Source: the human T2T-CHM13v2.0 reference genome, Homo sapiens
Strand: one strand, 5' to 3'
Length of the DNA: 64,000 nucleotides
Assembly: GCF_009914755.1 (NCBI RefSeq)
Contig: NC_060926.1
Positions 21,281-25,993 of this stretch are shown here, piece by piece. Position 1 is the stretch's first letter. Each line of letters starts with the position of its first letter. The notes under the pieces are model-generated. The model worked only from the letters and a program-made list of their open reading frames with translations. It had not been told where the DNA came from and ran no database searches. Both the position numbers and the translations under genes were made by a program.

Positions 21281-21769
21281 AGTATCTAACTTTTTTGTGG
21301 TAGAAAGAAAGAAAGCGCAGAGATCCTACTCTGATGACAACAAGAACAAAAAACACAACACAATCTAATTCATTATTTTCTTCAACCCATCAGAGAGTTG
21401 AAATATCATAAACAACTAACCTGAAATCTAAGGAAGGAAAGGCATCTCCAAGGTTGGACTTGCTTACCTGGGACAGATGATGCTGGACACTAGTAAGAAG
21501 AACTGAGTTAAAAATGTTTAGCAAATTGCTAAGTGTTGAATGTGGGCAGGCAAGAGAATACAGAACCCCACAAGGCATCAGTCAGGTGGTGAATTCATAC
21601 CCCTTGAGGGCTCTTCTACATGGACCTCCCCTGATGCTAATTTTAAAAAGATTGGCCAGAGTCCTGAGAAGGCCTCCCACTGAGTGCGGGGCTGGGGAGG
21701 GGAGCAGCAACCCGAGGATGGAAAGGCAGAAAACCCCAGTCTTCCTTAGGGCACTGGTGAAAACCATTG
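21281..21769 (+). repeat. Inverted repeat, arm A
   Basis: Reverse complement of 25439-25993; core 21420-21709 has 3 mismatches in 290 bp by eye; duplicated ORFs on opposite strands in the ORF track. Confidence 0.97.
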
Positions 21770-22839
21770 AGAATGAAAATTTCTGAGAGTATTGTTAAGC
21801 CATCCCAATTTAAAAACAGCATGCTTGCTACAAACACAGCTTCAATGCCCCTTCACCCCAGCCACCAAACTAGCTCCTCAGCAAACACTCTGCACCCACC
21901 ATGAGCAGAGGAATCTCTCAGAGCCTTGGAGGTGAAGGAGAGAGAATGATGGCCCAAAACAAGGTTTTGGTTGAAAAAGTTTTAAGATAGAGTGGACTTA
22001 AGCATGGTAATGGATGGAGTGAGGAAAGCCAAAGAATAGAATTAAAAGAAATCAGGGAGTAAGGAGGATAGGTTGTAAATCACATAGCATGAATTTTCTT
22101 CCAGAATGTTTCATCAGTGTAGATGCTTAGGCGTGCAAGTTTAATTTTTGTTTAAAATGGGGGAAAAACCCTACATGAATAGATTCCTGGATTAAATTTA
22201 GTATCAGATTTAATTTTTACAGTCAAGAACAATTGGATTGTCTGCTCGTATTTTCTGGATCATGAGATCTATTCACACTGAAATGTCTAACATTTTGCTC
22301 ATTGTCAAAAAAAGCCTTCAAGTGCTGACATGAAGAATTGTGCTTTATTTCAAATTGTGCACATCACTGCAGTAGCAGAGGCTCATCACACATGAGAGAA
22401 GACATACTGGAAGTAAGATTCATCTCTTCTAGTTGATTTGACATAAGCAGTATCATCCAACTAAATATCAGTGAATGCCTGTTTTAATATTTCTCCAATC
22501 TTATTCATAGTTACAAAATCAGGACAATTTATTTCTTCTATTAAATGCCGTTTATTGAACTAAGCATTATTTCAAAGAAAAAAGAACTAGTCATTGAAAA
22601 GTAATTCCTTTTTTAGATACCTCATTAAACTTAACAATGGCATTTAAACACTTCTGATTATTGAAAAATTAAACATGCCTAAATTATTTGGTCTCATTCT
22701 ACTCATAGCCAAAATTTAAATATAGCTTATCAAGTGGTTTCTGAAAGGTATAGAGTAAAAATGCATTCTTCCTCAGCTCTTTTTCTGTACCAAAAAGCGC
22801 TATCTAGGAAGCTTAGCACAGAACTGAAAGTGAATCAAT

Positions 22840-23125
22840 AGGAAGATGTTGGTTAAAGAATATATAATTAGTTAGATTGAAAGAATGAGATCAAGGAATC
22901 TATTGCACAGCATGGTGAATATCGTTAATGATAATATATTTTTGAAATATGCTGAGAGTGGATGTTAGGGGTTCTCACCACAAAAATGACAGCTATGTTA
23001 AGTAATGCATTTGTTAATAAGCTGGATTTAACATTCCACATGTATGTATACTTCAACATCGTGCTGTACACAATAAATACATACAATTTTATCTTTTAGT
23101 TTCTAAAAAATTTAAAATCAAAATG
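22840..23125 (+). mobile_element. L1MA-type 3' end
   Basis: 'tattgcacagcatggtga..gttaat..gctgagagtggatgtta..ttctcaccacaaaaatg..aataaatacatacaatttt'. Confidence 0.8.
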
Positions 23126-23145
23126 AATTTTAAAAAGTAGAATTA

Positions 23146-23452
23146 GGCCGGGCGTGGTGGCTCACGCCTGTAATCCCAACACTTTGGGAGGCCGAGGCGG
23201 GCAGATCATGAGGTCAGGAGATCGAGACCATCCTGGCTAACACGGTGAAACCCTGTCTCTACTAAAAAAATACAAAAAAAATTGGCCTAGGGCAGTGGCA
23301 GGCGCCTATAATCCCAGCTACTCGGGAGGCTGAGGCAGGAGAATGGTGGGAACCTGGGAGGTGGAGCTTGCAGTGAGCAGAGATCAAGCCACTGCACTCC
23401 AGCCTGGGACACAGAGCGAGGCTCCATCTCAAAAAAAAAAAAAAAAAAAAAA
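23146..23452 (+). mobile_element. AluY
   Basis: 'gagatcgagaccatcctggctaacacggtg', 'gagaatgg..ggagcttgcag'; long A-tail. Confidence 0.93.
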
Positions 23453-23674
23453 GAATTAAAAACTATCTTCAGGCTGACCATATCAGTTTTTATGTCTTTT
23501 CAACCAAATTGGGTCAGATAGAGAAAAGGAAAAGATCTGCATACTCATTGCAACCTATGCTTTTCCTGTGAAGAAGCCAGTCATCTAATTTTTTAAAAGC
23601 AGTGAAAAAAAGGCTACAGACTATAGCATAGATTTATGTTAAATGTTACAAGCATGAAATGTTAAAATATATCC

Positions 23675-24625
23675 ATTTACAACAGAGTAAACAGACAACG
23701 TACAGAATGGGAGAAAATATTTGCAAACTATGAATCTGACAAAGGTCTAATATCCAGCATCTATAAGGAACTTAAATTTACAAGAGAAAAACAACCCTAT
23801 TTAAAAGTGGGCAAAGGACATGAACAGACACTTTTCAAAAAAGGACATCCATGTGGTCAACAAGCACGTAAAAAAAAGCTCAGTATCACTGATCATTAGA
23901 CAAATGCAAATCAAAACCACAATGAGATACCATTTCACACCAGTCAGAATGACTGTTAGTAAAAAGTCAGTAAATAACAGATGCTGGTGAGGTTGCAGAA
24001 AAAAGAGAACACTTATATACGGTTGGTGAGAGTGTATGTTAGTTCAACCATTGTGGAAAGCAGTATGGTGATTCCTCAAAGAGCTGAAAGCAGAACTACC
24101 ATTCGACCCAGCAATCCCACTACTGGGTATATACCCAGAGGAATATAAATCATTCTGCTATAAAGACACATGCACACAGATGTTCATTGCAGCACTATTC
24201 ATAGTAACAAAGATATGGAATCAACCTAAATGCCCATCAGTGGCAGATTGGATAAAGAAAATGTGGTACATATACACCGTGGAATACTATGCAGCCATAA
24301 AAATAACAAGATCCGGTCTTTTGCAAGAACATGGATGGAGCTGGAGGCTATTATCCTCAGGAAACTAACTCAGGAACAGAAACCAAATACCATATATTCT
24401 CACTTATAAGTGGGAGCTAAATGATGAGAAGTCACAGACACAAAGAAGGAAACAACCCTTGGGTCTACTTGAGGGTAGAGGGTGGGAGGAGAGAGGGGGC
24501 GGAAAAGGTAACTCTGGGGTATTGGACTTAATTCCTGGGTGATGAAATAATATGTACAACATACCCCAGCGATATAAGTTTACCTACATAACCTTCACAT
24601 GTACCCCTGAACCTAAAAGTTTAAA
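23675..24625 (+). mobile_element. 5'-truncated L1PA (older L1PA13-16-like) 3' end
   Basis: ORF2 C-terminal remnant (MFIAALF..KIWNQPKCPS..DWIKKMWYIYT.EYYAAIK); 3'UTR 'gatgaaataat.tgtacaac..gtacccctgaacctaaaa'. Confidence 0.92.
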
Positions 24626-25438
24626 ATACATATATATCCATTTAAAGCAATTCAGATTGTATCTTAGCTTATTTTTTGCTTTGAAGCTAGCTTATGAAAT
24701 TTTAAAATCAGGTAAAATTTGTGTGGCTTGCAAGGTCAGCATTAAAAAACCTAAGGAAAGGGGAGGACTCTGATTTTTCACTGGTTATGAAGCAAGGTGA
24801 TACTAAATGAATTATATTTATTATATGCATTACAGAATAAAATTTCTGTGTTTACTGGGTATTTTTTCATTTTAATTCCCAAAGTAAAACTACAACTCAA
24901 AGATGACCAGAACAATTGTTTTACTTCTTTCATCCTCATAGTCATTAACAAGTTTTAACAGAAGCTACTCGACGACAGATATTCTGCGTTTTACACGTTT
25001 GCTGCCCCTAGAGGTCTGAGCAAAGACAGAGGGAAGCTCCGAAAGTACAAGACTCTGGCTGACTTGAAGCTGCCACATAGGTGAAAACAATCGTGTCTTT
25101 CTGTAATCAGTAATGACATTTTGGGATCCCTGAGGCTCACTTGCTGTTAACGATATCACTTCTAAGACATTATAATACCAAAGCTATTAGAACCAAAAGA
25201 TCTAGGCTGTGTTGATTACTGAACCCCTGCCCACTCCTAGCATTGGGCCTCAGAAATCAGTTATTGATGAGAATTCACAGAATTACATCGGAAGTGTCAA
25301 AGTTAAGCCCAATAAAAAATTTTTAAAAAAACCATGAGATTTTAAGTGAAGGCAAGAATAATTTGACAACTGCTTGTGCATAAAATGTTTTCCGTAATTC
25401 ATTTTGGAAATGAAAATTTACTGCCTGTTTCCCATTTG

Positions 25439-25993
25439 CAATGGTTTTTCACCAGTGCCCTAAGGAAGACGGGTTTTTTGCCTTTCCCTCAGCAGTGTAA
25501 GGCTGTTCCATAGTAGAGATAGGAGAGGAGGATCCAGGCAGGATTTCTTGCCTCTCCCACACTAGCTGCTGCTCCCCTCCCCAGCCCCGCACTCAGTGGG
25601 AGGCCTTCTCAGGACTCTGGCCAATCTTTTTAAAATTAGCATCAGGGGAGGTCCATGTAGAAGAGCCCTCAAGAGGTATGAATTCACCACCTGACTGATG
25701 CCTTGTGGGGTTCTGTATTCTCTTGCCTGCCCACATTCAACATTTAGCAATTTGCTAAACATTTTTAACTCAGTTCTTTTTACTAGTGTCCAGCATCATC
25801 TGTCCCAGGTAAGCAAGTCCAACCTTGGAGATGCCTTTCCTTCCTTAGATTTCAGGCTAGTTAGTTATACTGAGATATCAGCTCTCTGATGGGTTAAAGA
25901 AAATCATGAATTAGCGATTGTGTTGTGTTTTTTGTTCTTGTTGTCACCAGGGTAAGATCTCTGCTCTTTCTACTAGAAGAAAAGTTAGATACT
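25439..25993 (-). repeat. Inverted repeat, arm B (has ~70-80 bp extra at ~25488-25566)
   Basis: Reverse complement of 21281-21769; core 25567-25856. Confidence 0.97.

What the first reader, a model, noticed from the sequence alone, without database searches (positions are those of the whole stretch)
21281..25993. ~0.5 kb inverted duplication flanking a 3.7 kb intronic segment (candidate recurrent-inversion substrate and long dsRNA stem)
Seen: 21281-21769 is the reverse complement of 25439-25993, and the arms do not resemble Alu, L1 or any family I recognise. Established: near-identical inverted repeats mediate NAHR inversions, and when co-transcribed they form long dsRNA that ADAR edits. Inference: 21770-25438 may be a polymorphic or recurrent inversion. 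The host pre-mRNA could also fold a ~290-bp near-perfect non-Alu duplex, much more perfect than typical Alu pairs.
Basis: partly seen in the sequence, partly recalled or inferred. Interest (0 to 1): 0.8.

Follow-up and report, generated by a model that had tools for sequence, protein, structure and literature searches.

The report
Inverted L1-fragment pair in PKP4 intron
Two inverted copies of the start of an ancient L1 retrotransposon sit 3.7 kb apart in the first intron of PKP4; their middle 290 bases were recently made almost identical, probably by gene conversion, but nothing found here shows that the segment between them flips or has a function.

Summary
The inverted repeat is real. Arms 21281-21769 and 25439-25993 align over 486 ungapped positions at 93.8% identity, with 6 indels. 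A 290-nt core has only 3 mismatches.

The arms are not family-less. Each is the first ~600 nt of the 5' UTR of an old L1-type LINE. At least 16 other genomic places hold copies at 59-85% identity. A profile built from 12 of those copies hits the window only at the two arms. The L1 5' ends face outward, and both arms stop at nearly the same family position.

The best reading is an old local inverted duplication of one 3'-truncated L1 fragment. The core, bounded by a 3-bp and a 69-bp indel, was later homogenised by gene conversion: core 1.0% versus rest 13.8% divergence, with 0 of 200 permutations reaching the contrast.

In the PKP4 pre-mRNA the arms are predicted to form helices of 182 and 106 bp.

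No inversion or RNA-editing record was found. The locus is absent from a table of 612 candidate inversions flanked by inverted repeats. The longest perfect identity tract is 107 bp.

This is an ordinary member of a known kind, and its function is untested.

The parts
21281..21769 (+). Left arm: L1-type 5'-UTR fragment, sense on + strand, with the L1 5' end at the outer (left) side. It lacks 69 nt that are present in the right arm and in the family.
   Evidence: Family profile hit hmm 61-650, ali 21283-21765, E 2.1e-61; 93% identical to the right arm.
25439..25993 (-). Right arm: the same L1 5'-UTR fragment, sense on - strand, with the L1 5' end at the outer (right) side. Its family homology runs about 20 nt further inward (to 25419) than the arm-arm homology.
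   Evidence: Family profile hit hmm 91-675, ali 25972-25419, E 9.6e-91.
21420..21709 (.). Homogenised core, left copy (partner 25567-25856): 3 mismatches in 290 nt.
   Evidence: Max chi-square scan 32.8; 0 of 200 permutations reach it; the rest of the arms has 27 mismatches in 196 nt. A 3-bp indel at 21407 and the 69-bp indel at 21711 bound it.
25567..25856 (.). Homogenised core, right copy.
   Evidence: gapless 302-nt pair at 98%.
25496..25564 (-). 69-nt stretch present only in the right arm. It is read as a deletion in the left arm, because the other copies align through it.
   Evidence: Gap columns; other family copies occupy these columns (occupancy 11-15 of 16).
21770..25438 (.). Spacer. 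21770-22850 and 24630-25440 are unique in the genome. An Alu lies at about 23146-23455 (+). An L1 ORF2 C-terminus plus 3' end lies at about 23653-24640 (+). A short L1-3'-end-like piece at about 22840-23130 was called by eye only.
   Evidence: self-hit only; 0 Pfam families in 12 frames; sub-threshold SRP-like hits at 23147-23432, consistent with an Alu; named Alu by eye; 24072-24365 = L1 ORF2p residues 1160-1236, E 1e-39.
21767..21782 (+). 16-nt direct repeat (14 of 16 identical, 11 exact) of 25404-25419. It sits at the inner end of the left arm.
   Evidence: reached by 3 of 1500 mononucleotide shuffles, 5 of 500 shuffles by segment swaps meant to keep dinucleotides, and 1 of about 1500 random window pieces.
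25404..25419 (+). Partner of the direct repeat, 19 nt inside the inner end of the right arm.

Best explanation
One 3'-truncated fragment of an old L1 element (the first ~600-620 nt of its 5' UTR) was copied once, locally and in inverted orientation. The right arm is probably the source. The two copies then drifted apart to about 14% divergence. Much later, a roughly 290-nt stretch lying between two indels was made nearly identical again by intrachromosomal gene conversion. Today the pair is a passive structure with no demonstrated function. In DNA it is a weak substrate for further conversion, or rarely for inversion of the 3.7-kb spacer. In the PKP4 pre-mRNA the two arms can pair into a long, almost perfect hairpin stem that nuclear ADAR would be expected to edit. 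Shown here: the repeat, its family membership, its geometry, the divergence contrast and the predicted duplex. Inferred: the duplication mechanism, the direction of copying, the dates, and any editing.
For: Family and type. The arms match 16 other genomic places at 59-85% identity. A profile of 12 of these copies finds exactly two hits in the 64-kb window, which are the arms. The copies share one terminus and extend inward for variable lengths, up to at least 1.55 kb. In 1 of 16 places, L1 ORF1 coding sequence follows on the same strand (tblastn E 6e-10 and 4e-16). By eye, an ORF1 N-terminal motif follows in three more places (translations).

One origin for both arms. Both start at the family terminus (hmm 61 and 91; copies left out of the profile start at 53-69). 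Both stop at hmm 650 and 675 of 1135, whereas the last matched position in each of the 16 other copies is 371, 449, 491, 588, 802, 831, 881 or 1005-1133. Retrotransposition yields 3' fragments, not 5' fragments (established knowledge), so two independent insertions with the same 3' truncation are unlikely. The arms are 86% identical even outside the core, against 59-85% to the other copies.

Conversion. The core has 3 mismatches in 290 nt and the rest 27 in 196; 0 of 200 permutations reach this contrast. The core is not a slow-evolving part of the family: its match to other copies is about 0.57, against 0.62 and 0.52 in the flanks. The tract ends at a 3-bp and a 69-bp indel.

Possible template-switch scar. 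A 16-nt direct copy of 25404-25419 sits at the left arm's inner junction, with a short shared CATT..G motif at the junction.

RNA. Cofold gives -879.5 kcal/mol against about -297 for 5 shuffles. 467 of 495 left-arm nt pair with the right arm, with helices of 182 and 106 bp.
Against: Both ends of the duplicated piece fall within about 25 nt of the ends of the L1 fragment itself. For a random DNA-level duplication that is a double coincidence. It would fit better with an RNA-templated copy or with conversion between two pre-existing copies. No target-site duplication or poly(A) remnant supports an RNA route (left-arm search reached by 200 of 200 shuffles, right-arm by 76 of 200). The direct repeat was noticed post hoc and its p is only about 0.001-0.01. 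No other species or haplotype could be examined, so the order of events, the dates and the direction of copying are all inference. ORF1 adjacency was confirmed by a tool at only one other copy. Pfam found nothing at curated thresholds in 21 read-through translations of long copies: 3 weak sub-threshold matches, E 0.13-0.75, (12 translations), and none (9). No Dfam or RepeatMasker name could be obtained.
Confidence: 0.6

Rival explanations
1. Active inversion substrate: the 3.7-kb spacer is polymorphic or recurrently inverted in humans or apes by recombination within the homogenised core.
For: The arms are over 90% identical, and the core shows that they have exchanged sequence. Known human NAHR inversions use IRs over 90% identical, from 654 bp upward (PMC6748972, passages). 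A 2026 catalogue tests IRs down to 140 bp (PMC13629690, passages).
Against: The locus is absent from the 612 candidate IR-flanked inversions in hg38. No coordinate starting 15847, and none starting 1584-1586, occurs in the supplements; the only 1583-prefixed table entries are an IR length on chr17 and a benchmark value. My hg38 position is recalled from the PKP4 start, not computed. There were no hits in the supplements of PMC6748972 (12 of 18 files searched) or PMC13721702. Of 24 papers that hold both 'PKP4' and 'inversion', 15 were listed and none of those titles concerns a genomic inversion at this locus; one was opened and concerns a deletion. The longest perfect tract is 107 bp and the arms are shorter than the shortest NAHR IR (654 bp) in PMC6748972.
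Confidence: 0.15
2. Two separate L1-derived insertions of the same short form, for example internally primed at the A-rich tract near family position ~690, landed about 2-3 kb apart in opposite orientation and have been kept alike by gene conversion ever since.
For: This explains why arm-arm homology ends at the ends of the L1 fragment on both sides. The family has an A-rich run just past the arms' inner end (alignment). Conversion between the arms is evident.
Against: None of the 16 other copies ends at profile position 650-700, so this short form is not a recurrent product. It would need two rare events within a few kb and conversion sustained since the family was active (copies are now only about 60% alike). 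Neither arm has a target-site duplication.
Confidence: 0.12
3. The 4.7-kb unit is one mobile element with long terminal inverted repeats (a DNA transposon or foldback element).
For: The family termini face outward, as transposon ends do. A 15-nt direct match (13 of 15 identical) lies at the two outer borders, reached by 7 of 200 shuffles.
Against: Six long copies examined over about 10 kb each carry one arm-like copy only, with no inverted partner. The spacer is unique in the genome and shows no transposase or any Pfam domain in 12 read-through frames. Other copies continue into L1 ORF1 sequence. The 15-nt match overlaps a small local palindrome formed by the arm's own first 8 nt.
Confidence: 0.03
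4. The pair, or its stem, is maintained by selection for a function, such as an RNA structure that affects PKP4 splicing or an enhancer duplicated in both arms.
For: Only the low core divergence and the strong predicted duplex.
Against: No exon of any listed transcript and no RefSeq functional element lies in 21281-25993 (annotation supplied with the finding). No Rfam family matches the arms. The three core differences are all transitions. The sharp bounding by indels fits a conversion tract better than constraint. The core is not better conserved among family copies.
Confidence: 0.05

Closest known systems
Inverted duplicated sequences in human pre-mRNAs (Barak et al. 2020, PMC7006430; passages read)
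   Same: Two inverted copies within one pre-mRNA, mostly intronic and mostly repeat-derived, predicted to fold into long dsRNA. That paper counts 197 human cases longer than 300 bp and above 96% identity, a few of them heavily edited.
   Different: Here only the 302-nt gapless core passes 96%; the whole alignment is 93-94%. The locus was not found in the supplement text that was held. Expression and editing were not examined here.
Inverted-repeat (NAHR) mediated polymorphic inversions, InvFEST HsInv series (PMC3961182, PMC6748972, PMC13629690)
   Same: A short unique segment flanked by inverted repeats over 90% identical. Exchange between the repeats is evident.
   Different: No second orientation is known. 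The arms (about 0.5 kb, longest perfect tract 107 bp) are shorter than the 654 bp-24.2 kb IRs of the 24 NAHR inversions in PMC6748972. The locus is not in the 612-candidate table.
Arm-to-arm gene conversion in large sex-chromosome palindromes (recalled; no paper read here)
   Same: Inverted arms separated by a spacer stay more alike than their age predicts, because they convert each other.
   Different: The scale is about 0.5 kb rather than tens to hundreds of kb. The arms carry no genes, they are TE-derived and autosomal, and only part of each arm is homogenised.
Inverted Alu pairs as ADAR substrates (recalled)
   Same: Intronic inverted retroelement copies that pair in the pre-mRNA.
   Different: The arms are L1 5'-UTR sequence, not Alu. 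The stem is much more perfect than the other inverted pairs in the window, which I take to be Alu pairs by eye (75-81% complementary). The loop is long (3.7-3.9 kb).
Replicative template-switch (FoSTeS/MMBIR) inverted duplications with templated junction insertions (named in PMC6748972 and bioRxiv 10.1101/2024.01.29.577884; junction features recalled)
   Same: An inverted copy placed a few kb from its source. There is a short templated piece from beside the source at one junction, and short shared bases at the switch point.
   Different: The event would be tens of millions of years old, so the junctions are eroded. Only one junction shows a candidate scar, which was noticed post hoc.

Membership tests
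L1 (LINE-1) 5' end / 5' UTR repeat | Dispersed copies in the genome | tested here: met
   16 other places at 59-85% identity. A 12-copy profile hits both arms at E 2e-61 and 1e-90.
L1 (LINE-1) 5' end / 5' UTR repeat | A shared 5' terminus, with the body continuing 3' into ORF1 on the same strand | tested here: inconclusive
   The shared terminus is clear. ORF1 downstream on the same strand was found by tblastn at 1 of 16 places (L005/L029). An ORF1 N-terminal motif was seen by eye at three more (the motif is recalled). No curated Pfam match: 3 weak sub-threshold hits, none.
L1 (LINE-1) 5' end / 5' UTR repeat | Assignment to a named Repbase/Dfam subfamily | not testable with these tools
   No RepeatMasker or Dfam was available. 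'L1M-like' is my estimate from about 60% identity between copies.
IR-mediated polymorphic inversion | Flanking inverted repeats over 90% identical | tested here: met
   93.8% over 486 nt; core 99%.
IR-mediated polymorphic inversion | Both orientations of the spacer observed among haplotypes or species | not testable with these tools
   Only one assembly is held. The catalogue look-ups were negative.
Long near-perfect intragenic inverted duplicate (over 300 bp and over 96%, Barak 2020) | Both arms in one pre-mRNA, over 300 bp and over 96% identical | tested here: inconclusive
   Both arms lie in PKP4 intron 1 (supplied annotation). The gapless 302-nt pair is 98%, but the full alignment is 93-94%.
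Long near-perfect intragenic inverted duplicate (over 300 bp and over 96%, Barak 2020) | Observed A-to-I editing clusters | not testable with these tools
   No RNA-seq or editing database was available. Text searches for PKP4 with ADAR/dsRNA and with A-to-I returned one paper each, judged unrelated from title and abstract start only.
Long-TIR DNA transposon | Other copies also carry paired inverted ends; the interior encodes or derives from a transposase | tested here: not met
   One arm-like copy only in each of 6 loci of about 10 kb. The spacer is unique and has no Pfam hit.
Segmental duplication (at least 1 kb, at least 90%) | Length of at least 1 kb | tested here: not met
   The arms are 489 and 555 nt, with no homology beyond them.

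The most novel reading that the evidence does not exclude
The pair is a live recombination substrate. The spacer orientation differs among human haplotypes or between apes through recurrent flipping within the 290-nt core. The same core gives a broadly expressed gene one of the longest near-perfect non-Alu intronic dsRNA stems, which would be hyper-edited by ADAR. Conversion has kept that stem near-perfect for millions of years.
Probability: 0.1. Interest if true: 0.5.

Novelty: new member of a known kind. Interest (0 to 1): 0.22.

Why it matters
It matters little as it stands. It is a clean small example of three known things acting together. A retroelement fragment was duplicated in inverted orientation. 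Partial concerted evolution is bounded by indels. And there is a predicted long intronic dsRNA stem. It would matter more if population or ape assemblies showed both spacer orientations, or if total-RNA data showed dense editing. It would then be a compact natural model: 0.5-kb arms, a 3.7-kb spacer and unique flanks that make PCR assays easy. Such a model could measure conversion against crossover rates at short, imperfect inverted repeats, and show how cells handle a non-Alu near-perfect duplex in a widely expressed gene.

Tried and rejected
1. Long-TIR transposon: rejected.

2. Homology extending beyond the arms, as for a larger segmental duplication: none.

3. Target-site duplications around each arm: none above chance. 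A 15-nt match at the outer borders (reached by 7 of 200 shuffles) overlaps a local mini-palindrome and was not relied on.

4. Coding remnants in the spacer: 0 Pfam families in 12 read-through frames.

5. Pfam on long family copies gave only 3 weak sub-threshold matches, which I treat as noise. One search (6 proteins: 3 window L1 open frames and 3 L025 frames) gave nothing. The PDB search on the L025 ORF2-like stretch also gave nothing, so that by-eye call stays untested.

6. Extending the family with L026 7480-8300 hit a different high-copy repeat of about 350 bp inserted in that copy (6977 candidates). This was uninformative for the arms.

7. One nhmmer all-against-all run timed out and was replaced by blastn.

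8. Rfam on 20500-26800 gave only sub-threshold SRP- and miRNA-like hits inside the Alu.

9. Literature. Aguado 2014 lists no inversion at this locus; its one chr2 table entry is HsInv0241 at the AQP12A/AQP12B genes (passages). The published Cell 2022 version of the 41-genome inversion study (the bioRxiv preprint appeared in the listing; the DOI was recalled) is not held, and bioRxiv supplements are closed, so those call sets were seen only through the merged table of PMC13629690. The supplements of PMC7006430 and PMC12695637 have no entry for this locus.

10. The earlier-findings tool was not open.
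Full report
**Observation**

The inverted repeat exists as described. The repeat finder on 20500-26800 returns four collinear inverted pairs. The longest is 21408-21709 / 25567-25868, 302 nt at 98%.

A MAFFT alignment of the two arms, analysed, has 570 columns over left 21281-21775. There are 486 ungapped positions with 30 mismatches (93.8%; 18 transitions, 12 transversions). There are six indels, of 7, 2, 3, 69, 2 and 1 nt. The 69 nt at 25496-25564 occur only in the right arm.

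Nothing alignable lies beyond either end. Local alignments of the next 200 nt score at noise (133 and 126 of 300 shuffles reach them).

In the whole assembly, each arm's only matches above 85% identity are itself and its partner. Among inverted pairs of at least 150 nt within 10 kb in the 64-kb window, this one is 98% complementary and the other eight are 75-81%.

**What the arms are**

They are not family-less.

- Genome searches with either arm return 16 further places at 67-85% identity over parts of the arm. Lenient blastn and nhmmer extend these to most of the arm at 59-77%.
- These copies share one terminus, which coincides with the outer end of each arm (alignment). From there they run inward for different lengths, up to at least 1.55 kb (L017 against L012).
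- A profile built from 12 of them, excluding the arms, is 1135 positions long with about 50 flank positions at its start. It hits the window exactly twice. One hit is 25972-25419 on the minus strand (profile 91-675, E 9.6e-91). The other is 21283-21765 on the plus strand (profile 61-650, E 2.1e-61).

In the orientation in which the shared terminus comes first, L1 ORF1 coding sequence follows on the same strand in one other copy. A tblastn with an ORF1 frame taken from a young L1 hits L029/L005 at E 6e-10 directly after the family part, and at E 4e-16 further on. In read-through translations of three more copies (L025, L026, L028) I recognise by eye the N-terminal coiled-coil motif of old L1 ORF1, about 1.3-1.45 kb from the terminus. 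That motif is recalled, not tested. Pfam found only three weak sub-threshold matches (E 0.13-0.75) in the L025 frames and nothing.

I therefore read the family as the 5' end (5' UTR) of an ancient L1-type LINE, and the arms as its first ~600 nt. A subfamily name needs Dfam or RepeatMasker, which I did not have.

**Geometry and the spacer**

The left arm is sense on the plus strand and the right arm sense on the minus strand. The two L1 5' ends therefore face outward and the truncated ends face each other.

The spacer is not part of the family.

- 21770-22850 and 24630-25440 find only themselves in the genome.
- They give no Pfam family in 12 read-through frames.
- The rest of the spacer is younger insertions. 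One is an Alu at about 23146-23455; it gives sub-threshold SRP-like Rfam hits, many loci match it at 70-86%, and I name it Alu by eye.
- Another is an L1 ORF2 C-terminus plus 3' end at about 23653-24640; 24072-24365 matches ORF2p residues 1160-1236 at E 1e-39.
- A stretch at about 22840-23130 looks like an L1 3' end to me but was not tested.

Six long family copies, examined over about 10 kb each, carry a single arm-like copy and no inverted partner. The pair is therefore not the two ends of a long-TIR element.

**Origin**

Both arms begin at the family terminus and both stop at almost the same family position (650 and 675 of 1135). In the 16 other copies the last matched position is 371, 449, 491, 588, 802, 831, 881 or 1005-1133.

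Retrotransposition produces 3' fragments, not 5' fragments (established knowledge). A 5'-only piece is therefore a post-insertion remnant, and two such remnants with the same break point most simply share one origin. Outside the core the arms are still 86% identical, far above their 59-85% to other copies.

I conclude that one truncated fragment was duplicated locally in inverted orientation. The right arm is the likelier source, because its family homology continues about 20 nt past the arm-arm boundary.

One junction may keep a scar. Positions 21767-21782, at the inner end of the left arm, are a direct, not inverted, copy of 25404-25419, which lie 19 nt inside the right arm's inner end. Of the 16 nt, 14 are identical and 11 are exact. 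This is reached by 3 of 1500 mononucleotide shuffles, by 5 of 500 shuffles by segment swaps meant to keep dinucleotides, and by 1 of about 1500 random window pieces. An inverted copy followed by a short direct piece from beside the source, joined at a few shared bases, is what replicative template switching leaves. I noticed it post hoc and treat it as suggestive only.

Against a random DNA-level duplication stands the fact that both ends of the copied piece fall within about 25 nt of the ends of the L1 fragment. An RNA-templated copy, or two insertions kept alike by conversion, would explain that better. However, there is no target-site duplication around either arm, and no other family copy ends at position 650-700.

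**Concerted evolution**

Divergence is very uneven. The core 21420-21709 / 25856-25567 has 3 mismatches in 290 nt (1.0%), and the remaining 196 aligned positions have 27 (13.8%). The maximal chi-square is 32.8, reached by 0 of 200 permutations.

The core is not a slowly evolving part of the family. Its per-column agreement with the other copies is about 0.57, against 0.62 and 0.52 in the two flanks.

The low-divergence tract ends at a 3-bp indel on one side and at the 69-bp indel on the other, as expected if heterology stops heteroduplex extension. I take this as gene conversion between the arms. With ordinary primate neutral rates (my assumption), the flanks suggest a duplication tens of millions of years old, and the core an exchange within the last several million years. 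No outgroup was available to check this.

**Inversion**

Conversion shows that the arms interact, so an occasional crossover, which would invert the spacer, is possible. Nothing found here shows that it happens.

- The longest perfect tracts are 107, 77 and 68 bp.
- The 24 NAHR inversions of Giner-Delgado et al. use IRs of 654 bp to 24.2 kb (PMC6748972, passages).
- The 2026 catalogue of 612 IR-flanked candidates was merged from five long-read, Strand-seq and optical-map studies, from earlier paired-end predictions and from inverted segmental duplications, with IRs down to 140 bp (PMC13629690, passages). Its supplements hold no coordinate beginning 15847, and none beginning 1584, 1585 or 1586. 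Its only table entries beginning 1583 are an IR length on chr17 and a benchmark value (Table S1 and S2).
- My hg38 position, about chr2:158.47 Mb, rests on a recalled PKP4 start.
- Other supplements gave nothing (in one search only 12 of 18 files were searched).
- Of 24 papers that hold both 'PKP4' and 'inversion', 15 were listed and none of those titles concerns a genomic inversion at this locus. I opened one, which reports a deletion.

**RNA**

Both arms lie in PKP4 intron 1 on the transcribed strand (supplied annotation).

- Co-folding the two arms as sense RNA gives -879.5 kcal/mol, against -284 to -306 for five shuffled partners.
- 467 of 495 left-arm nucleotides pair with the right arm.
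- The longest uninterrupted helices are 182 and 106 bp. Two of the three core differences become G-U pairs in this strand (base identities).
- The antisense strand folds equally well (-877.7).

This is a far better stem than the other inverted pairs in the window, which I take to be Alu pairs by eye. The class is known, however. Barak et al. count 197 human inverted duplicates in pre-mRNAs that are over 300 bp and over 96% identical, mostly weakly expressed, with some heavily edited (PMC7006430, passages). A LastZ survey lists 627,791 inverted pairs of at least 200 bp and at least 80% identity in T2T-CHM13 (bioRxiv 10.1101/2024.01.29.577884, passages).

I found no editing or duplex record for this locus. 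That is weak evidence, since no editing database or RNA data could be queried. No Rfam family matches the arms.

**Verdict**

The feature is real and neatly structured, and it is explained by known processes. It is an inverted duplicate of an L1 5'-UTR fragment, partly re-homogenised by gene conversion, and able to form a long intronic RNA stem. Dating, orientation polymorphism and editing need other genomes and RNA data.

Noticed in passing
window 21767-21782 and 25404-25419: A 16-nt direct repeat (14 of 16 identical, 11 exact) lies at the inner junctions of the two inverted arms. It may be a templated insertion from a strand switch, or a target-site duplication around the spacer.
   Followed up: partly
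window 21268-21288: A small palindrome sits at the outer border of the left arm: 8 nt, a 5-nt spacer, then the reverse complement, which is the arm's own first 8 nt. This also produces a 15-nt direct match (13 of 15) with 25986-26000, reached by 7 of 200 shuffles.
   Followed up: partly
L025 about 2030-2720 and L024 4181-4495: In two other family copies, the L1 5' part and a short ORF1 start appear to be joined directly to the C-terminal part of ORF2 (by eye; the two loci align with each other there). This may be a shared internal deletion, that is, a non-autonomous deleted L1 lineage.
   Followed up: no
L026 about 7740-8100: A repeat of about 350 bp is inserted in this family copy. It has at least 6977 candidate matches in the genome at 75-79% identity. 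The family was not identified.
   Followed up: no
window about 26170-26200: A stretch just outside the right arm looks by eye like the core of a MIR element. This is recalled and was not tested.
   Followed up: no
window 45815-47017: There is a cluster of close inverted pairs: 235 nt at 81% separated by 733 nt, and 186 nt at 81% separated by 89 nt. They are probably inverted Alus, next to the RefSeq enhancer at 47769-48270.
   Followed up: no
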